NCBI GenBank assembly: GCA_963663165.1 | Contig: OY760175.1 | Span: 736,001 to 800,000 of the forward strand | Direction: 5' to 3' | DNA from: an uncultured Desulfospira sp. | GTDB lineage: Bacteria > Desulfobacterota > Desulfobacteria > Desulfobacterales > Desulfobacteraceae | Length of the DNA: 64,000 nucleotides | Part shown: piece after piece, positions 824-29,218 of the stretch | How positions within the stretch are numbered: the first letter of the stretch is position 1 | Layout of the letters: every line of letters begins with the position of its first letter | The notes under the pieces: generated by a model | Seen by the model: only the letters and a program-made list of their open reading frames with translations | The model's database searches: none | Told to the model about the DNA's origin: nothing | Program-made: the position numbers and the translations under genes

Positions 824-889
824 GTCCCCTTTTTATCCGCAAATTCTTTATGTGACCTGTATCCTATGAAGCCGCAAGAATACATTGTC

Positions 890-1082
890 TGATCAAACGG
901 GCAGGTCTTCTGACTTCCCTCCCTTCATGCGGCCTTCCCATCCCAAGATTCTGGTGGAACAGTGGCACAATAAATTGCTGAAGAGTTCCTGTTAAAATAA
1001 CAGGCAAGGGTCACAGCAGCGGGCCTGTCTTCGATTTTCACGAAGTTCCCTATTAAGCTTAATTTGCAAGCACCCATTCGGC
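890..1082 (-). ncRNA. Cobalamin (AdoCbl, class I-type) riboswitch
   Basis: Minus strand reads CGAATGGGTGC...TTAATAGGGAACTTCGTGAAAATCGAAGACAGGCCCGCTGCTGTGA...GCCACTG...GGGAAGGC...AAGTCAGAAGACCTGCCCGTTTG. All hallmark motifs, including the 3' B12 box, are in order, and P1 pairs CGAAUGGGU/GCCCGUUUG. Confidence 0.93.
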
Positions 1083-1085
1083 TGC

Positions 1086-1114
1086 AATGAACCAAAAATC
1101 TTCAAAAAAGTCAA
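1086..1114 (-). promoter_or_regulatory. Putative sigma70 promoter of the riboswitch-flp transcript
   Basis: TTGACT-17 bp-TTCATT with an extended TG; predicted +1 falls near the 5' end of riboswitch P1. The -10 is weak. Confidence 0.5.
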
Positions 1115-22543: not shown

Positions 22544-23596
22544 TCAGACAATTGATTTTTGCCTTAACAGATGGTCTGCCAGAACCAGCATAAGCATGGA
22601 CTCGCAGACCATGTTAATTCTGGGAATGGCGCTGATATCATGCCGTCCCGTTGTGGAAATCGTTGTGGGCTCATGGGTCTTTGTAAGGGTCTTTTGAACT
22701 TTTAAAATAGAGGGGATGGGTTTGATATGGACCCTTGCCACAATCTCATCCCCATTGGAAATGCCGGCCAGAATTCCGCCGGCATGGTTGGTTTCAAACC
22801 CGTCGGGCATGATCTGGTCGTTGTTCTCATACCCGGTCATCCGGGCCGCCTCAATTCCGGAACCAATTTCAACCGCCTTGACCGCACCGATACTCATCAA
22901 GGCCTTGGCAATATCGGCATCTAATTTATCAAACACGGGATCTCCGAGCCCTGCCGGAACATTTGAGGCCCTGATTTCAACCACGCCGCCAAGGGAATCC
23001 CCTTGTTCTTTGACCTGTTCAATTCTTTTTTCCATGGCCATGGCCGCCTTGGGGTCAGCGCACCGCAACGGACTGGTTTCAAGAAATTCAGGATCAAAGG
23101 TTTTGGCCTCAACCCTGCCAAGGGCCAGGGTATGGCTCATGATACGGATCTGATGTCCTGCAAGGACAAGCCCTGCCACGGCACCTGCGGCCACCCGGGC
23201 CGCGGTTTCCCTTGCCGATGCCCGGCCCCCGCCCCGATAATCCCGGATACCGTATTTTTGGGTGTAAGAATAATCCCCGTGACCCGGCCTGAAGAGATTT
23301 GCAATATCATCATAGGATCTGGACCGGGCATCCTGGTTTTCAATGAGGATCATGATGGGGGTCCCGGTGGTCCGGTTTTCAAAGGTGCCGGAAAGGATTT
23401 TCGGGCGGTCTGGTTCTTTTCTCTTGGTAGAGGCCGGGCCTTTACCGGGTTTCCGTCTGTCCAAAGCCTTTTGAATCATGGCCTCGGTAATGGGAAGGCC
23501 CGGCGGGCATCCCTGGATGATCACGCCTAACGCCGGGCCGTGGGATTCGCCAAAGGTGGTGATCTGAAATGCTTTTCCAAAACTTGATCCTGACAT
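22544..23596 (-). CDS. aroC: Chorismate synthase
   Basis: TFGESHG, RPGHGD, RGGGRASARET, GGILAGISNG, GRHD. Confidence 0.97.
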   Translation of the reverse strand: MSGSSFGKAFQITTFGESHGPALGVIIQGCPPGLPITEAMIQKALDRRKPGKGPASTKRKEPDRPKILSGTFENRTTGTPIMILIENQDARSRSYDDIANLFRPGHGDYSYTQKYGIRDYRGGGRASARETAARVAAGAVAGLVLAGHQIRIMSHTLALGRVEAKTFDPEFLETSPLRCADPKAAMAMEKRIEQVKEQGDSLGGVVEIRASNVPAGLGDPVFDKLDADIAKALMSIGAVKAVEIGSGIEAARMTGYENNDQIMPDGFETNHAGGILAGISNGDEIVARVHIKPIPSILKVQKTLTKTHEPTTISTTGRHDISAIPRINMVCESMLMLVLADHLLRQKSIV

Positions 23597-23653: not shown

Positions 23654-24184
23654 TTAAAGTTTTTCAAATGCTGTTTGAATCTGCCGGGCCGCCTGGTCCG
23701 GGGAAAGGGCCTGAGTATCGATGGAAAATCCGGCGGTTTCCTGGTAGAGGGGGTTCCTTTCTGACAACAGGGCAACGGTTTCCTGATAGATGGGGCTTTG
23801 GGTCAGGGCAGGCCTAGAGGATTGGCTGTTCAAATCCTGCCCAAGCCGTTCAATGATACCGGCAGGCTCGGCCTTAAGCCATACCGCCCATCCCTTTTCC
23901 CGGATCAGTTTCCGGTTTTCCGGATCAAGGACAATACCGCCGCCTGTGGAAATCACCTGCCCGGCATGGCCAAAGTCCTGATTGGCTATAAATTCAAGGA
24001 CATGGGCCTCCTGTTCCCTGAAAAATGGCCACCCGTTCTTTTCTACCATCGCTTCAATGGACATGCCGGCCCGTTCCTGAACCACCTGGTCCGTATCCCG
24101 GAAATCATATTCAAGAAGATCCGCCAGCAGCCTGCCGATAGTGGTCTTTCCCGTACACCGGTATCCAATCAAAAAAATATTCAT
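23654..24184 (-). CDS. aroK: Shikimate kinase
   Basis: IGYRCTGKTT P-loop, GWPFFREQE, STGGGIV, RPAL, RNPLY. Confidence 0.94.
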   Translation of the reverse strand: MNIFLIGYRCTGKTTIGRLLADLLEYDFRDTDQVVQERAGMSIEAMVEKNGWPFFREQEAHVLEFIANQDFGHAGQVISTGGGIVLDPENRKLIREKGWAVWLKAEPAGIIERLGQDLNSQSSRPALTQSPIYQETVALLSERNPLYQETAGFSIDTQALSPDQAARQIQTAFEKL

Positions 24185-24196
24185 TTAAATAGGGGG

Positions 24197-24261
24197 TTAG
24201 GCTGAAGGGGATTAGACTGAAGTAATTTACCTTCAGTCTTCAGCCTAAATACCTTCAGCCT
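24197..24261. repeat. Short-period inverted repeat (AGGCTGA/TCAGCCT) between aroA and aroK
   Basis: TTAGGCTGAAG..TTAGACTGAAG-TAATTTAC-CTTCAGTCTTCAGCCTAA..CTTCAGCCT. Confidence 0.65.
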
Positions 24262-24265
24262 GCTT

Positions 24266-25522
24266 TTAAAGTTTCTCAAAAATATCCCAGTACCCGGGAA
24301 AAGATTTTTCCACGCAACCGGGATTTTCAATTTCCATGCCCGGCACCACCAGGCCGGCCAGAGAAAAAGCCATGGCAATCCGATGATCGTTATAGGTCTC
24401 AATGAACGCGCCTTTAGGGGTTCCACCAACCACCGTAAGCCAGTCATCTCCCTGCCGGGCATCGATTCCCATTTTCAAAAGCCCTAAAACCACGGCATCA
24501 ATCCGGTCACACTCTTTTTCCCTTAAGTGGGCGATGTTGGTGATCCTTGTTTCCCCGTTGGCAAAGGCGGCGGCAACCGCAATGGCCGGAACCGCATCCG
24601 GCGTATCCGACATGTCCACATCCACTCCGGTCAGTCCATTCCCTCTGACACCGGCACAGCGGTCTTTAAATTCCAGGGTGGCGCCCATTTTTTCCAGAAT
24701 ATATATCTGTTTAAAATCACCCTGCAAAGAGTCTTTTTGAACATTTTTTACATAAATGGCCCGGCCGGTAATGGCGCCGGCCGCCCAGAAATACCCGGCA
24801 TTGGAAAGGTCGGGTTCCACAAAAAAGGTTCCGGACGCATAGGACTGTCCCCCGGGCACCAGATACCGGGTTTCATCAAGGCGCTTTGCATCAACCTTAA
24901 ACTGTTTCATGATATCCAGGGTAAGGTCTATATACGGTGAGGATACCGGGGGCCCGGTCAGTTGAATGTTAAGGCCGTTTTCAAAAAAAGGGCCGATCAT
25001 GAGAAGGCTGGAAAGGTACTGGCTTGATCTTGAACAATCAAGCAGGGTATCTCCCCCCTGCCGGTTTCCCCCCTGAATGGTTATGGGGGGGGTTCCCTGG
25101 GCATTGTCAGACCTGGCGCTAATTTGTATCTTTTCAAGGGCATCCAGCAGCTCCTTCATGGGACGGCGGCACATTCTCTGGTCCCCGGTCAGGGTATAGG
25201 CACGGGTGCCCAGGGCGGCAATTCCAGCCAGAAGCCGCATGGACGTGCCGGAATTGCCCAGATAAACCGGTTCATCAAAGGGTTCTGGCCTGCCGTTAAA
25301 TCCTTTCACTTCAACAGTATCAGGACCGGTGTCCCTGATTTGGACCCCCATATGGGAAAGGCACTGGCAAGTCAGGGAAATATCCTGGCTTTCAAGAAGG
25401 TTGGTTATGTTTGAAACTCCCCCTGAAAGGGCGGCACAGATCAGCATCCGGTGAGAGATGCTTTTTGATCCTGGCACGGTAACCGTCTGGTCTTTAATGG
25501 GCCTTGGAATTATTTTTTTCAT
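24266..25522 (-). CDS. aroA: EPSP synthase
   Basis: PGSKSISHR, GNSGTSMR, SSQYLS, LREKECDRI, DHRIAM, KSFPGY. Confidence 0.97.
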   Translation of the reverse strand: MKKIIPRPIKDQTVTVPGSKSISHRMLICAALSGGVSNITNLLESQDISLTCQCLSHMGVQIRDTGPDTVEVKGFNGRPEPFDEPVYLGNSGTSMRLLAGIAALGTRAYTLTGDQRMCRRPMKELLDALEKIQISARSDNAQGTPPITIQGGNRQGGDTLLDCSRSSQYLSSLLMIGPFFENGLNIQLTGPPVSSPYIDLTLDIMKQFKVDAKRLDETRYLVPGGQSYASGTFFVEPDLSNAGYFWAAGAITGRAIYVKNVQKDSLQGDFKQIYILEKMGATLEFKDRCAGVRGNGLTGVDVDMSDTPDAVPAIAVAAAFANGETRITNIAHLREKECDRIDAVVLGLLKMGIDARQGDDWLTVVGGTPKGAFIETYNDHRIAMAFSLAGLVVPGMEIENPGCVEKSFPGYWDIFEKL

Positions 25523-25540: not shown

Positions 25541-26368
25541 TCATTTTGTGAGCAGGGCGGTGCGCATCTGATGCTGATCCGGTTCAATGCCCGTCCACAG
25601 TTTAAACTGGGCAGCGGCCTGGGCAATAAACATGGCAAGCCCGTCCACCACATGGCAGCCCCTTTGCCTGGCGGCCTGGATCAGTCTGGTGTCCGGCGGG
25701 GTATAAACTACATCCATCACCACCATTTCAGGCCTAAGCCATGACAGGGGAACCGGAGCCTGATCCACGGCCGGCGCCATCCCGATACTGGTGGTGTTAA
25801 TGAGAATATCCGCCTGAATTTGAGAAATGTCTTGGAGGGGACAGAACCTGCCCTGGTATTGGCCGGCCAGATCCATGCCCGTTTGAGCGGTCCGGTTGAC
25901 AATCACCAGACGGCCTTTGTTTTTCCATATGCCAAAGGCAACCGCTCTGGCCGCCCCTCCGGCCCCGACAATACAGACGGTTTTACCGGCAATGCCAAAG
26001 GGTTTAAGGGGATCAACCGCCGCCTTTGAATCGGTATTGTACCCCAAAAGAGAGCCCCGGTCATTGACAATGGTATTCACCGCGCCCATATCCCCGGCCT
26101 CAGGATCGATCCAGTCCAGGTAATCCATAACCCCCGCCTTGAAAGGAATGGTAATGGATGCCCCTTTTATATTCAGGCTTCGGATAGCGTTGATACAGCT
26201 TTTGGCATCCGGCGGTTCAAAGGCCAGATATACCGCATTTATGCCCTGATGGGCAAATGCCCTGTTGTGAACCAGGGGGCTTTGGCTGTGGGACACCGGG
26301 CTGCCCATCACACCGTACAATTGCGTGGCGGCATTGATCTGTTGATTCATATAAGGTTCGAAATCCAT
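25541..26368 (-). CDS. aroE: Shikimate dehydrogenase
   Basis: PVSHSQSP, SITIPFK, GAVNT, GYNTD, GAGGAARA, NTTSIGM, DVVY. Start may be 26350. Confidence 0.95.
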   Translation of the reverse strand: MDFEPYMNQQINAATQLYGVMGSPVSHSQSPLVHNRAFAHQGINAVYLAFEPPDAKSCINAIRSLNIKGASITIPFKAGVMDYLDWIDPEAGDMGAVNTIVNDRGSLLGYNTDSKAAVDPLKPFGIAGKTVCIVGAGGAARAVAFGIWKNKGRLVIVNRTAQTGMDLAGQYQGRFCPLQDISQIQADILINTTSIGMAPAVDQAPVPLSWLRPEMVVMDVVYTPPDTRLIQAARQRGCHVVDGLAMFIAQAAAQFKLWTGIEPDQHQMRTALLTK

Positions 26369-26380
26369 TTTTACATTCCA

Positions 26381-27505
26381 CTATCCTAAAGTTTGAATCC
26401 CTGACTCGCTGTCCATGGGATAAGAACCCAAAACCCTCAAAGAAAGGCAGACAGACTTGAGTTGTTCAATGGTATGGGAAACCACCGGGTCCTGAATATG
26501 CCCTTCAATGTCCATAAAAAAATAATAACTCCAGTTCTGGTTCCGCGTGGGCCTGGATTCAAGTTTGAGCATGTTAAGCCCGGCCTGGTTTACCGGTTCC
26601 AGGGCCTTGAACAATGCACCGGGCACATGGGAGGCGGCAAACATGATAGATGTTTTGTCTTTCCCGGTGGGGGGAGGCATGTCTTTACCAATAACCAGGA
26701 ACCGGGTGATGTTCCCGGCATGATCTTCAATGGAGGTTTCAACGGGAAGCAGTTCATAGATATGGGCGGCCTTGCCGCTGGCAATGACGGCCCCGTCCGG
26801 ATCACTGGCAACCGCCCTGGCGGCCAGGGCGGTTGAACCGGTTTCCTTGACGGGGGTGTTAGAAAATTTCTTTCTCAGCCACCCCTTGCATTGGGCCACC
26901 GCCTGGTGGTGGCCGTAAATGGTTTTCACATGGGAAGGGTCTCCGGTCATGGACAGCAGATCATAGCTCACGGGTTCATAATGTTCAGCGCAGATCTGCA
27001 AGGTATACACCGCAAACAGGTCCAGGGTATGGTTAACCGCCCCTTCAATGGAATTTTCAACCGGGACTACCCCAAAACGGCTTTCATTTTTCTCCACCTC
27101 CTTGAACACGTCGTTGAGGCCGGGCTGGCAAATGAAATTGCCCGAATGTTTAAAATGAGTTAACGCCGCCATGTGGGTTAAGCCGGCTTCAGGTCCGAGA
27201 AAGGAAATTTTCTTGGGCTTCTGAATTTCACGGGTGGCTGTAATAATCACATTGAATATGTATTGAAGCAGGTCCCTGGAGGCCGGCCCCCGGTTCAGGG
27301 CAAACAGGTTCTCTATGACTTTTTTTTCCCTTTCCCGGTCCAGAACGGCGCCCCCTTTCTCCTGTTTGATCCGGCCCACCTGTCTGCCGATGTCAAGGCG
27401 CTGGTTGATCAATTCCAGGATCTGAGCATCAATGGTGTCGATCTGTTTTCTTAAAGGGGCCAGGGCCCTGTCCCGGTCTGGGTGGGCCGGTTTTTCTGTG
27501 TTCAT
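26381..27505 (-). CDS. pheA: Bifunctional chorismate mutase/prephenate dehydratase (P-protein)
   Basis: LRKQIDTID..RE CM domain, FLGPE, VPVENSIEG, NITRF, LESRP ACT domain. Start reset to ATG 27505 (GAAGGAAGG RBS). Confidence 0.95.
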   Translation of the reverse strand: MNTEKPAHPDRDRALAPLRKQIDTIDAQILELINQRLDIGRQVGRIKQEKGGAVLDREREKKVIENLFALNRGPASRDLLQYIFNVIITATREIQKPKKISFLGPEAGLTHMAALTHFKHSGNFICQPGLNDVFKEVEKNESRFGVVPVENSIEGAVNHTLDLFAVYTLQICAEHYEPVSYDLLSMTGDPSHVKTIYGHHQAVAQCKGWLRKKFSNTPVKETGSTALAARAVASDPDGAVIASGKAAHIYELLPVETSIEDHAGNITRFLVIGKDMPPPTGKDKTSIMFAASHVPGALFKALEPVNQAGLNMLKLESRPTRNQNWSYYFFMDIEGHIQDPVVSHTIEQLKSVCLSLRVLGSYPMDSESGIQTLG

Positions 27506-27544: not shown

Positions 27545-27582
27545 AAAAAACCGCAACAAGATGAATCCTGCTGCGGTTTTTT
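27545..27582 (-). terminator. Attenuator terminator upstream of pheA
   Basis: Minus strand AAAAAACCGCAGCAGGA-TTCA-TCTTGTTGCGGTTTTTT, 40 bp before the pheA ATG. Confidence 0.88.
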
Positions 27583-27608
27583 CTGGTCAATTGGTTGAAA
27601 TGATCAGT

Positions 27609-27680
27609 TCACCACAGACAAAATCCAGTATAATAATACCGGTAAAAATAAAAAAATATGTCTGTGAGAATAATATGCAT
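27609..27680 (-). CDS. Aromatic-amino-acid leader peptide (pheL-like), MHIILTDIFFYFYRYYYTGFCLW
   Basis: Hand translation from ATG 27680 to TGA 27609: 23 aa with 4 Phe, 5 Tyr and 1 Trp in the last 15 codons; immediately followed by a terminator and then pheA. Confidence 0.88.
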   Translation of the reverse strand: MHIILTDIFFYFYRYYYTGFCLW

Positions 27681-27709
27681 TTCAAATTTTAATTTTATGT
27701 TTGATCAGA

Positions 27710-27738
27710 ACCCTATAACCGGCCAAAAAATATGTCAA
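27710..27738 (-). promoter_or_regulatory. Putative sigma70 promoter of the leader-pheA-aro operon
   Basis: TTGACA-17 bp-TAGGGT, about 30 bp upstream of the leader ATG. Confidence 0.65.
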
Positions 27739-27812: not shown

Positions 27813-27898
27813 TTGGACTTGGGACTCGGGATATGGGACTTGGGGATTGCGGCATCCACGGCCTCCCCAAGTCCCATATCCCATATCCCAAGTCTCAA
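27813..27898. repeat. 7-bp-periodic inverted repeat (TGGGACT/AGTCCCA family)
   Basis: TTGGACT TGGGACT CGGGATA TGGGACT TGGGGA ... TCCCCA AGTCCCA TATCCCA TATCCCA AGTCTCA. Confidence 0.85.
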
Positions 27899-27976: not shown

Positions 27977-29218
27977 TCATTCCCGGTTAAAAACAAAAGA
28001 TTTTATCCGGTTGCCGTCCATGTCTTTGACCGTGATGGTCCATTTATCAACCACGATGGATTCTCCGGGCTGGGGAATCCGTTCAATCTGTTTGAGGAAA
28101 AAACCGGAAAAGGTGTCATAATTGGCGGATTCCGGGATGGAGATATTGATTTTTTTATTTAAATCGTAAATATCGATCTTTCCGGCCACCAGCCATTTGT
28201 TTCCCTTAATCCGGATGATATCCGGTACGTTCCGGTCGGATTCGTCTGAAATATCCCCGATAATTTCTTCCACCACATCTTCGAGGGTGACAATCCCGGC
28301 CACGCCGCCATGCTCATCCACTACAATGGCCATGTGGCTTTTTTTGATCTTAAACTCGTGGAGCAAAGAATCCAGCTTTTTAAATTCCGGTATGAAATAT
28401 GGCTTTTTCATAATCTTTTTGACATCCAGTGATTCGGGATCTTCTTTTTGCTCGGTGATTTTCTGGAAGCTTGCAAACAGGTCTTTTACATGAAGAATGC
28501 CGATGACATGGTCAATGGAATCTTCAATCACCGGGATTCTTGAAAATCCGGTCTCCAGGATTTTCTGGATATCAAGCCCGTTGGATACATCAATAAAAAA
28601 CATATCCGCCCTGGGGGTCATGATTTCAGAGCAGGCCGTGTCGTCAAAATCAAAAATATTGCTGATCAGTTCCTTTTCTTCTTCCTTGATTTCCCCTTCC
28701 CCCTCAACCACTTCTACCATGGTCATCAGTTCATCTTCGGTGACCGCTTCCTGGGCATTGTCAATGGTACCGTGGAGTTTGGGAATAAAATTAAGAATAA
28801 AAATCAAAGGCCAGAACAGCCGGGACAACCAGAACAGGGGGTAGATCACCATCCGGGAAACCAGGACATTGTTGTGGTTGGCAAAGGATTTGGGGAAAAT
28901 TTCGCCAAAGACCAGGATCAGCAGGGTCATCCCGCCGGTAGCGATCCCGACGGCATTGGATTGAAAATGGGATATGGCAAGGGAGGTGGCAAGGGCCGAG
29001 GCCCCGATATTAACGATGTTGTTCCCGATCAGGATGGTGGTTAAAAGCGTATGGGAATTCTCTTTCATGTCCATGATCAGCTGACCGGTCTTTGAGCCGT
29101 CCTTGGCAATGTGAAAGGCCTTAATTTTGGATATGGAAAACAGCGCGGTTTCCGACGATGAAAAAAAGCCTGACAGAAACAGGCAGATCACCAGAAGAAT
29201 CATTTCAAAGGTTAGCAA
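27977..29218 (-). CDS. CNNM/HlyC-CorC family protein (DUF21-CBS-CBS-CorC)
   Basis: SGFFSSSETALFS, ILIGNNIVN, FGEIFPK, IMTPR, FSRIPV, VDEHGG..GIVTLEDVVEEIIG. Confidence 0.92.
   Translation of the reverse strand: MLTFEMILLVICLFLSGFFSSSETALFSISKIKAFHIAKDGSKTGQLIMDMKENSHTLLTTILIGNNIVNIGASALATSLAISHFQSNAVGIATGGMTLLILVFGEIFPKSFANHNNVLVSRMVIYPLFWLSRLFWPLIFILNFIPKLHGTIDNAQEAVTEDELMTMVEVVEGEGEIKEEEKELISNIFDFDDTACSEIMTPRADMFFIDVSNGLDIQKILETGFSRIPVIEDSIDHVIGILHVKDLFASFQKITEQKEDPESLDVKKIMKKPYFIPEFKKLDSLLHEFKIKKSHMAIVVDEHGGVAGIVTLEDVVEEIIGDISDESDRNVPDIIRIKGNKWLVAGKIDIYDLNKKINISIPESANYDTFSGFFLKQIERIPQPGESIVVDKWTITVKDMDGNRIKSFVFNRE

What the first reader, a model, noticed from the sequence alone, without database searches (positions are those of the whole stretch)
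27545..27738. Unannotated Phe/Tyr/Trp leader-peptide attenuator upstream of pheA and four shikimate-pathway genes
Seen: promoter TTGACA-17-TAGGGT; leader ORF MHIILTDIFFYFYRYYYTGFCLW* (27680-27609), with 10 of the last 15 codons aromatic. CACAGACA can pair with TGTCTGTG (1:2). TGGATTTTGTCTGTGGT can instead pair with ACCGCAGCAGGATTCA (2:3 antiterminator), and that segment is also the 5' arm of a T-tailed terminator (3:4) 40 bp before pheA. Established: this is the layout of ribosome-mediated attenuation (E. coli pheL/trpL), where pheL senses Phe only. Inference: one leader here integrates Phe and Tyr (perhaps Trp) tRNA charging to control the common pathway pheA-aroE-aroA-aroK-aroC. Standard ORF callers would miss it.
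Basis: partly seen in the sequence, partly recalled or inferred. Interest (0 to 1): 0.8.

Follow-up and report, generated by a model that had tools for sequence, protein, structure and literature searches.

The report
Phe/Tyr leader-peptide attenuator, shikimate operon
A tiny unannotated gene packed with phenylalanine and tyrosine codons, followed by competing RNA hairpins, very probably lets sulfate-reducing bacteria switch on aromatic amino acid synthesis when these run short; it is a textbook type of switch, here found as a widespread but uncatalogued family.

Summary
In detail: promoter, 23-codon leader (27680-27609, minus strand), 1:2 / 2:3 / 3:4 helices and a U-tailed terminator 39 nt before pheA-aroE-aroA-aroK-aroC. 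A covariance model finds the element in 114 of 151 genomes of the order. Of 125 hits examined, 121 precede an aromatic-pathway gene, mostly aroA' or DAHP synthase rather than pheA. The 1:2 and 2:3 helices covary; control pairings do not. AT-richness does not explain the Tyr codons: a separate leader before a DAHP synthase-prephenate dehydratase fusion in the same family has 127 Phe and 4 Tyr codons in 19 copies. It is very probably a classical ribosome-mediated attenuator (0.88). Phe plus Tyr sensing is inferred, not shown. Trp sensing is unlikely for this copy, because its only Trp codon lies inside antiterminator segment 2. This copy has no Shine-Dalgarno sequence, and no RNA data exist. The mechanism is known, and similar Phe/Tyr leaders are in print (aroR; shikimate uORFs; one sentence on a D. 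autotrophicum pheL). The family has no Rfam match. Verdict: new member of a known kind, interest 0.4.

The parts
27710..27738 (-). sigma-70-type promoter, TTGACA-17 nt-TAGGGT (predicted)
   Evidence: Sequence. TTGAC[AT] lies within 140 nt upstream of the leader start in 150 of 159 homologues, against 23 for the antisense control; median distance 63.5 nt. Not listed by the consensus scanner. No start site data.
27609..27680 (-). leader ORF, 23 codons, Phe/Tyr-rich
   Evidence: An aromatic-rich ORF is found in 163 homologous loci. No Shine-Dalgarno pairing in this copy; 80% of 159 homologues have one.
27630..27656 (-). sensing codons 9-17 (3 Phe, 5 Tyr, 1 Arg)
   Evidence: Constrained folding: a ribosome with its A site at codons 9, 11, 13, 15, 16 or 17 gives P(2:3)=1.00 in the nascent RNA; codon 18 gives 0.35; codons 20, 23 and the stop give 0.00 (assumes a 12-nt footprint).
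27659..27666 (-). segment 1 (anti-antiterminator / pause hairpin 5' arm)
   Evidence: 1:2 helix: 76.7% of cells paired, 37 two-sided changes vs 13.9 shuffled, 0 of 500 shuffles. Own duplex -13.7 vs cross-genome -11.0 kcal/mol.
27625..27642 (-). small hairpin inside the 1:2 loop (CCGGTAT/ATACTGG)
   Evidence: It may constrain the NGG codon that reads Trp, Arg or Gly in homologues; inference.
27611..27627 (-). segment 2 (pairs with segment 1 or segment 3; overlaps the last leader codons)
   Evidence: 2:3 helix in 100 homologues: 84% paired, 26 two-sided changes vs 10.1 shuffled, 0 of 500 shuffles. Not significant in the first 15-sequence alignment, 37 to 154 of 500.
27545..27582 (-). segments 3:4, intrinsic terminator hairpin with U6 tail
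   Evidence: -22.2 kcal/mol. Own duplex -21.5 vs cross-genome -16.4, 0 of 10000 permutations (that alignment was fitted to this helix).
26381..27505 (-). pheA, chorismate mutase/prephenate dehydratase
   Evidence: NCBIfam
25541..26368 (-). aroE, shikimate dehydrogenase
   Evidence: NCBIfam TIGR00507 over cut-off
24266..25522 (-). aroA, EPSP synthase
   Evidence: NCBIfam TIGR01356 over cut-off
23654..24184 (-). aroK/aroL, shikimate kinase
   Evidence: NCBIfam NF002988, E 2.6e-46, just under cut-off
22544..23596 (-). aroC, chorismate synthase
   Evidence: NCBIfam TIGR00033 over cut-off

Best explanation
A classical ribosome-mediated transcription attenuator. Transcription starts about 25 nt before a 23-codon leader. 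When charged tRNA-Phe and tRNA-Tyr are plentiful, the ribosome runs to the stop codon, covers segment 2, and the 3:4 terminator stops RNA polymerase before pheA. When either is short, the ribosome stalls in codons 9-17, segment 1 is covered, segment 2 pairs with segment 3, and polymerase reads into pheA-aroE-aroA-aroK-aroC. Shown here: the anatomy, conservation, gene context and covariation. Inferred: translation of the leader, termination at about 27547, the response to Phe (about 0.85) and the response to Tyr (about 0.65). Trp sensing by this copy is unlikely (about 0.1), but plausible for the roughly half of the order-wide copies with a Trp codon in the sensing window. The copy belongs to an order-wide family that ancestrally heads aroA'-aroB'-pheA-aroE-aroA-aroK-aroC; pheA became the first gene where aroA'-aroB' were lost (direction of change inferred from distribution, no tree built).
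For: Covariance model hits in 114 of 151 genomes of the order, 87 of 113 high-quality ones. 121 of 125 hits examined are followed within 1.3 kb by an aromatic-pathway gene: aroA' 70, DAHP synthase 41, pheA 3, aroE 3, aroK 2, aroD 1, aroA 1. All 8 hits outside the order carry an aromatic-rich short ORF before an aromatic-pathway gene (by inspection of translations). Codons in the cores: TTT/TTC 552 against TTA/TTG 5, TAT/TAC 623. Own-genome duplexes beat cross-genome duplexes for 1:2, 2:3 and 3:4 (0 of 10000 permutations each, 114 sequences), but not for the controls 1:3, 2:4 and 1:4 (8060, 2117, 2673 of 10000). Pair counts on an alignment not fitted to 1:2 or 2:3 agree. Internal control for composition: 127 Phe, 4 Tyr, 0 Trp in 19 leaders before the DAHP synthase-prephenate dehydratase fusion, against 164 Phe, 99 Tyr, 8 Trp in 41 pheA-first leaders and 335 Phe, 456 Tyr, 65 Trp in 120 leaders before common-pathway genes. 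Promoter and Shine-Dalgarno signals are conserved in homologues.
Against: No expression, ribosome or 3'-end data. This copy and its closest relative have no Shine-Dalgarno pairing (+2.9 and +0.2 kcal/mol). At equilibrium on the full transcript the terminator wins at every ribosome position (P(3:4)=1.00), so the switch must be kinetic. Covariation was not significant in the first 15 sequences. Two of 19 family pheA loci lack the element, and one keeps only segments 2-3-4 with no leader ORF. The tested Phe-Tyr-Phe leader aroR does not respond to Tyr (PMC11802643). Homologues are related and not independent, and leader ORFs were picked by aromatic content, which inflates the frame comparison.
Confidence: 0.88

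Rival explanations
1. It is a ribosome-mediated attenuator, but in practice it senses Phe only (a pheL equivalent); the Tyr codons are tolerated filler. This is a sub-case of the best explanation, counted within its 0.88.
For: C. glutamicum aroR has Phe-Tyr-Phe and responds to Phe only (PMC11802643). pheA-first leaders are shifted towards Phe (164:99) compared with common-pathway leaders (335:456). Gurvich et al. call a D. autotrophicum element a potential pheL (PMC3082878).
Against: This copy has 5 Tyr against 3 Phe in the sensing window. 40 of 41 pheA-first and 118 of 120 common-pathway leaders keep Tyr. The Phe-specific fusion gene has almost pure-Phe leaders in the same AT-rich setting.
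Confidence: 0.25
2. The family is a real attenuator, but this copy is decayed: without a ribosome-binding site the leader is poorly translated, 1:2 and 3:4 form by default, and the element only sets a fixed low readthrough.
For: No Shine-Dalgarno pairing here. Loss of the leader has happened in relatives (L004/L222, L010/L220, L015/L221).
Against: ORF, ATG, stop and all three helices are intact and kept in both same-genus genomes, with synonymous and Phe/Tyr-preserving changes. The 5' UTR is short and A/U-rich, which can allow initiation without a Shine-Dalgarno sequence (own knowledge).
Confidence: 0.07
3. The RNA switch is worked by something other than a translating ribosome (an RNA-binding protein, uncharged tRNA or a metabolite), and the U-rich stretch only looks like Phe/Tyr codons.
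For: The core is U-rich. Rfam's trpB motif gives a weak match over the element (25.4 bits against a gathering score of 59, E 0.26).
Against: Third-position pattern TTY/TAY almost without TTR; conserved start codon, Shine-Dalgarno sequence and ORF length of 15-35 codons; codon content follows the downstream gene. No Rfam family reaches its gathering score here.
Confidence: 0.04
4. Chance: AT-rich intergenic DNA plus an ordinary terminator for the upstream CNNM-family gene.
For: The upstream gene runs in the same direction and ends at 27977.
Against: Shuffle and genome-wide nulls; the element occurs with various upstream neighbours and almost always before aromatic-pathway genes; covariation.
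Confidence: 0.01

Closest known systems
E. coli pheL-pheA attenuator (Gurvich et al., PMC3082878; section 10 read)
   Same: Short leader with Phe codons, alternative hairpins and terminator before pheA. [quoted passage not shown]
   Different: pheL is Phe-only and controls pheA alone. This leader is mixed Phe/Tyr and heads common-pathway genes. No match to Rfam's Phe or Trp leader models was listed. Whether the D. autotrophicum element is this family or the Phe-only leader could not be told: the supplement was not searchable.
Corynebacterium glutamicum aroR-aroF attenuator (PMC4046766 passages; review PMC11802643 passages)
   Same: Leader peptide with Phe and Tyr codons before a common-pathway gene (DAHP synthase), ribosome-mediated.
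   Different: Three codons (Phe-Tyr-Phe), responds to Phe only. Here 8 Phe/Tyr codons lie in the sensing window, often with Trp in homologues. Different phylum; sequence homology was not tested.
Shikimate-associated uORF candidates from the Breaker laboratory: uORFC-13-1 before aroF in Acholeplasma (PMC8632094 passage); two Phe/Tyr uORFs (PMC6429828 figure legend)
   Same: Predicted uORF with aromatic codons plus terminator before shikimate genes.
   Different: uORFC-13-1 is from another phylum; the lineage of the two PMC6429828 uORFs was not given in the passages seen (none of the five genomes analysed is in this order). A full 1:2/2:3/3:4 set was not described in the passages seen. Their supplements were not read.
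Putative attenuator before aroA'-aroB'-pheA-aroF-tyrA-trp in Desulfovibrio vulgaris (Song et al., PMC1173090, Table 7 and section 36 passages)
   Same: Same phylum-level group and the same operon head (aroA', aroB').
   Different: Only an automatic terminator/antiterminator prediction, with no leader peptide mentioned ('leader' occurs 0 times). Whether it is homologous was not tested.
Multivalent attenuators such as E. coli thrL and ilvL (recalled, no call)
   Same: One leader reads several amino acids made by a shared pathway.
   Different: Different amino acids and sequence.

Membership tests
Ribosome-mediated (classical) transcription attenuator | Short leader ORF enriched in codons for the pathway's end products | tested here: met
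Ribosome-mediated (classical) transcription attenuator | Mutually exclusive antiterminator (2:3) and intrinsic terminator (3:4), with a 1:2 helix | tested here: met
   Folding and covariation; not significant in the small alignment
Ribosome-mediated (classical) transcription attenuator | Geometry: stalling at control codons frees segment 2, a ribosome at the stop covers it | tested here: met
   Constrained folding, (model; 12-nt footprint assumed)
Ribosome-mediated (classical) transcription attenuator | Lies in the 5' leader between a promoter and biosynthetic genes | tested here: met
   promoter predicted only
Ribosome-mediated (classical) transcription attenuator | Translation initiation signal for the leader | tested here: inconclusive
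   ATG present; no Shine-Dalgarno pairing in this copy; present in 80% of 159 homologues against 21% in a control window
Ribosome-mediated (classical) transcription attenuator | Leader translated, and termination relieved by amino acid limitation | not testable with these tools
   Needs experiment
pheL (Rfam Phe_leader) | Match to the Rfam model at its gathering score | tested here: not met
pheL (Rfam Phe_leader) | At least five Phe codons, two adjacent, within 60 nt (criterion of PMC3082878) | tested here: not met
   Four Phe codons in the leader; criterion
Trp leader (trpL) | Trp codons placed so that stalling frees the antiterminator | tested here: not met
   The single Trp is the last codon, inside segment 2
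aroR-type leader (C. glutamicum) | Sequence homology to aroR | not tested
   aroR sequence not fetched; resemblance is in working principle only

The most novel reading that the evidence does not exclude
Desulfobacterales run aromatic amino acid synthesis through a tunable set of leader-peptide attenuators. One homologous family reads Phe, Tyr and often Trp together at the entry to the common pathway, including the archaeal-type aroA'/aroB' route. Other leaders in the same genome are set by codon content to one branch: Phe-only before a DAHP synthase-prephenate dehydratase fusion, Trp before trpE, and Phe-rich before an ABC transporter with a phenylacetate-CoA ligase-like gene, which may be aryl-acid salvage. 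If so, it is a multivalent attenuator with real Tyr and Trp input on the shikimate pathway, which the tested aroR case does not show.
Probability: 0.45. Interest if true: 0.58.

Novelty: new member of a known kind. Interest (0 to 1): 0.4.

Why it matters
It supplies the likely main control of aromatic amino acid synthesis for a large order of sulfate-reducing bacteria, and a ready alignment of more than 150 leaders for a family that no Rfam model covers. Natural copies differ in Phe:Tyr:Trp content on one RNA scaffold, so whether one leader can integrate several aromatic amino acids is directly testable with reporters. The mechanism itself is textbook.

Tried and rejected
Rfam: no family at gathering score over the element; only a cobalamin riboswitch elsewhere in the window. 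Sub-threshold matches, including trpB (25.4 vs 59 bits), were treated as chance. NCBIfam has no match for the leader peptide. The pattern search (124 of 161 genomes) was too loose: many matches are chance or coding-sequence hits, so its tally is not used; I hand-picked 20 plausible matches from it. Covariation on 15 sequences was not significant. In the all-pairs scan the best non-terminator pair was one register off the 2:3 helix, so it is not cited as support. The difference in Trp content between pheA-first and pathway-entry leaders (8 of 41 vs 58 of 120; Fisher p 0.0009 on a cruder count that wrongly included two terminal Trp) is confounded with phylogeny, and the Trp codon sits at an NGG position that also reads Arg or Gly (TGG 60, CGG 16, AGG 12, GGG 11), so it is not taken as proof of Trp sensing. 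No match in plasmids. No profile hit within 2.5 kb of pheA in 32 more distant loci, mostly Nitrospirota; longer operons could hide one. tyrA of this genome shows no leader. Earlier findings by place and by sequence: nothing. Literature: 8 searches found no description of this family beyond the items under Closest known systems. Lopatovskaya et al. 2010, a large attenuator survey cited in PMC4833913, is not held; by my recall it covers delta-proteobacteria and may already list some of these leaders. The supplement of PMC3082878 could not be searched.

Full report
Observation. The 211-nt leader folds at z = -4.67. The isolated helices are 1:2 -17.3, 2:3 -22.1 and 3:4 -22.2 kcal/mol. Downstream lie pheA, aroE, aroA, a shikimate kinase and aroC; upstream lies a CNNM/GldE-like gene. 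The consensus scanner listed neither the promoter nor the terminator. Rfam has no family for the element.

Chance. 67 of 100000 shuffles of the leader body and 24 of 100000 shuffles of its T-rich window reach the observed aromatic density. Of 120133 short ORFs in the genome, 19 have at least 8 aromatic codons in 12; 4 of these have a terminator-like hairpin behind them, and 3 of the 4 precede aromatic biosynthesis genes.

Conservation in the family. A PheA search of 41 genomes returned 30 loci, 19 of them full-length pheA loci of the same family. 15 of 19 carry the leader and helices within about 400 nt of pheA. One carries it 1.9 kb upstream, ahead of aroA' (ADH synthase) and aroB' (3-dehydroquinate synthase II). 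One keeps only segments 2-3-4, and two lack it. The nearest named PheA relatives are Desulfospira, Desulfobacula and Desulfobacter records. 36 of 48 such Desulfobacterales-type loci have the leader within 2.5 kb of pheA, among them Desulfospira joergensenii DSM 10085 and Desulfocicer vacuolatum DSM 3385; 0 of 32 more distant loci do.

Order and phylum. A covariance model from 15 family sequences hits 114 of 151 genomes of the order, 87 of 113 high-quality ones. I examined 125 of the 126 listed matches and left out one antisense match overlapping another hit. 121 are followed within 1.3 kb by an aromatic-pathway gene: aroA' 70, DAHP synthase 41, pheA 3, aroE 3, aroK 2, aroD 1, aroA 1 (the aroD label and the DAHP synthase subtype labels are my recognition, not a family search). 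Of the other four, one is at a contig end, one is an aromatic leader before an unrelated gene, and two look like false hits. In a phylum sample, 13 of 151 genomes hit, 8 of them outside the order; all 8 have an aromatic-rich short ORF before aroA', a DAHP synthase or aroK, by inspection of translations. The element therefore heads the common aromatic pathway; pheA is its first gene mainly in this family, and the window's genome gives no tblastn match to aroA' or aroB'.

Coding signal. In 163 leaders the cores hold TTT/TTC 552 times against TTA/TTG 5 times, and TAT/TAC 623 times. The best 12-codon window has 7.9 aromatic residues in frame against 2.8 and 3.6 in the other frames (inflated, because ORFs were chosen for this). 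TTGAC[AT] lies upstream in 150 of 159 homologues (antisense control 23), and 80% have Shine-Dalgarno pairing of -3 kcal/mol or better against 21% in a control window. This copy has none (+2.9), nor has its closest relative (+0.2).

RNA switch. In 100 homologues aligned with a model that contains only the terminator, the 2:3 helix is 84% paired with 26 two-sided changes (10.1 in shuffles, 0 of 500) and the 1:2 helix 76.7% paired with 37 (13.9, 0 of 500); slid registers give 32-49%. The tool warns that relatedness alone can give such shuffle results. The duplex test has matched controls: across 114 sequences each genome's own segments pair better than mixed ones for 1:2 (-13.7 vs -11.0), 2:3 (-17.6 vs -15.4) and 3:4 (-21.5 vs -16.4), 0 of 10000 permutations each, while 1:3, 2:4 and 1:4 show no such effect. 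The 15-sequence alignment alone gave no significant covariation.

What it senses. With a 12-nt ribosome footprint, stalling at codons 9-17 leaves 2:3 free in the nascent RNA; at codon 20, codon 23 or the stop it is blocked. The window holds 3 Phe and 5 Tyr codons. The only Trp is the last codon and lies in segment 2, so Trp sensing by this copy is unlikely. On the full transcript the terminator always wins at equilibrium, so the switch must be kinetic, as is accepted for trpL (own knowledge). That Tyr codons are selected is supported by an internal control. The same genome has a leader before a DAHP synthase-prephenate dehydratase fusion; in 19 of 20 fetched copies with a scorable leader it holds 127 Phe, 4 Tyr and 0 Trp. 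The family studied here holds 164 Phe, 99 Tyr, 8 Trp in 41 pheA-first leaders and 335 Phe, 456 Tyr, 65 Trp in 120 leaders before common-pathway genes; Trp occurs in 8 of 41 and 58 of 120. The Trp mostly sits at an NGG codon that also reads Arg or Gly, and the groups differ in phylogeny, so Trp input elsewhere in the order is plausible but open.

Mechanism. Best explanation (0.88): a classical ribosome-mediated attenuator. Response to Phe about 0.85, to Tyr about 0.65, to Trp about 0.1 for this copy; these are my estimates. Rivals: Phe-only sensing in practice (0.25, within the 0.88), a decayed copy with fixed readthrough (0.07), a protein- or ligand-driven switch (0.04), chance (0.01). Nothing here shows translation or regulation.

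Prior knowledge. Gurvich et al. note in one sentence a potential pheL in Desulfobacterium autotrophicum (PMC3082878, section 10 read; supplement not searchable). C. glutamicum aroR (Phe-Tyr-Phe) precedes aroF (PMC4046766 passages) and responds to Phe but not Tyr (PMC11802643 passages). Phe/Tyr uORFs before shikimate genes appear in PMC8632094 (passage) and PMC6429828 (figure legend). A putative attenuator before aroA'-aroB'-pheA in Desulfovibrio vulgaris is tabulated in PMC1173090 (passages). PMC2659441 lists Shewanella pheA and aroF leaders (passages). PMC11109978 (passages) and PMC4833913 (passages) do not describe this family in the passages seen. Eight literature searches found no description of the order-wide family, but Lopatovskaya et al. 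2010 is not held and may cover it. This scan has 29 earlier findings with the same keywords; the 8 shown are from other lineages where the lineage is stated (unchecked notes).

Verdict. Real, well conserved, and ordinary in mechanism. It works like pheL/trpL but fails the membership tests for both; it is an uncatalogued family of a known kind. What lifts it a little is its spread across an order, its position ahead of the aroA'/aroB' route, and several differently tuned leaders in one genome. Interest 0.4; 0.58 if multivalent Phe/Tyr/Trp sensing is shown.

Noticed in passing
G000:C1:4614345-4614475 (-), L111: Second copy of the same attenuator family, with Phe, Tyr and Trp in the core, before a 355-aa DAHP synthase.
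   Followed up: partly
G000:C1:665698-665813 (+), L112/L225: Phe-only leader with terminator before a 622-aa DAHP synthase-prephenate dehydratase fusion; conserved in the family, 34 of 61 genomes match. It may be the 'pheL' noted for D. autotrophicum.
   Followed up: yes
G000:C1:3076057-3076220 (+), L223: Leader with Phe, Tyr and two adjacent Trp codons plus terminator before a third DAHP synthase and aroB. DNA match in 5 of 41 genomes, only one other over the full length.
   Followed up: partly
G000:C1:5346505-5346668 (+), L224/L227: Phe-rich member of the same family (profile E 1.4e-6) before an ABC transporter cluster and a phenylacetate-CoA ligase-like gene (below cut-off); possible aryl-acid salvage for Phe synthesis (inference). 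Long DNA matches in 6 of 41 genomes.
   Followed up: partly
G000:C1:1514540-1514690 (+), L226: Ile/Leu/Val-rich leader with strong terminator before ilvD and further branched-chain genes.
   Followed up: no
G000:C1:about 2249890-2250060 (+), upstream of trpE at 2250154: Short ORF with Trp-Cys-Trp followed by a terminator-like hairpin before the trp genes; candidate trpL.
   Followed up: no
window 27813-27897: 85-bp palindromic repeat between the CNNM-family gene and the promoter; matches fall in 127 distinct 200-nt bins of the genome, many at 97-99% identity. REP- or MITE-like.
   Followed up: partly
window 24185-24265: Palindrome (-32 kcal/mol, no U tail) between aroA and aroK; probably another small repeat.
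   Followed up: no
L004/L222 (G014), also L246: Attenuator truncated: segments 2-3-4 remain right behind the upstream gene's stop, with no leader ORF or promoter.
   Followed up: partly
L199/L228 (G193:C175:89-232): Aromatic-rich leader and terminator before a 545-aa protein with no match to my aromatic-pathway references.
   Followed up: no
window 883-1092 (-): Cobalamin riboswitch, Rfam RF00174, 84.6 bits.
   Followed up: no
L003 (G001): pheA of a same-genus genome is split by a stop or frameshift near residue 276-320; may be an assembly error.
   Followed up: no
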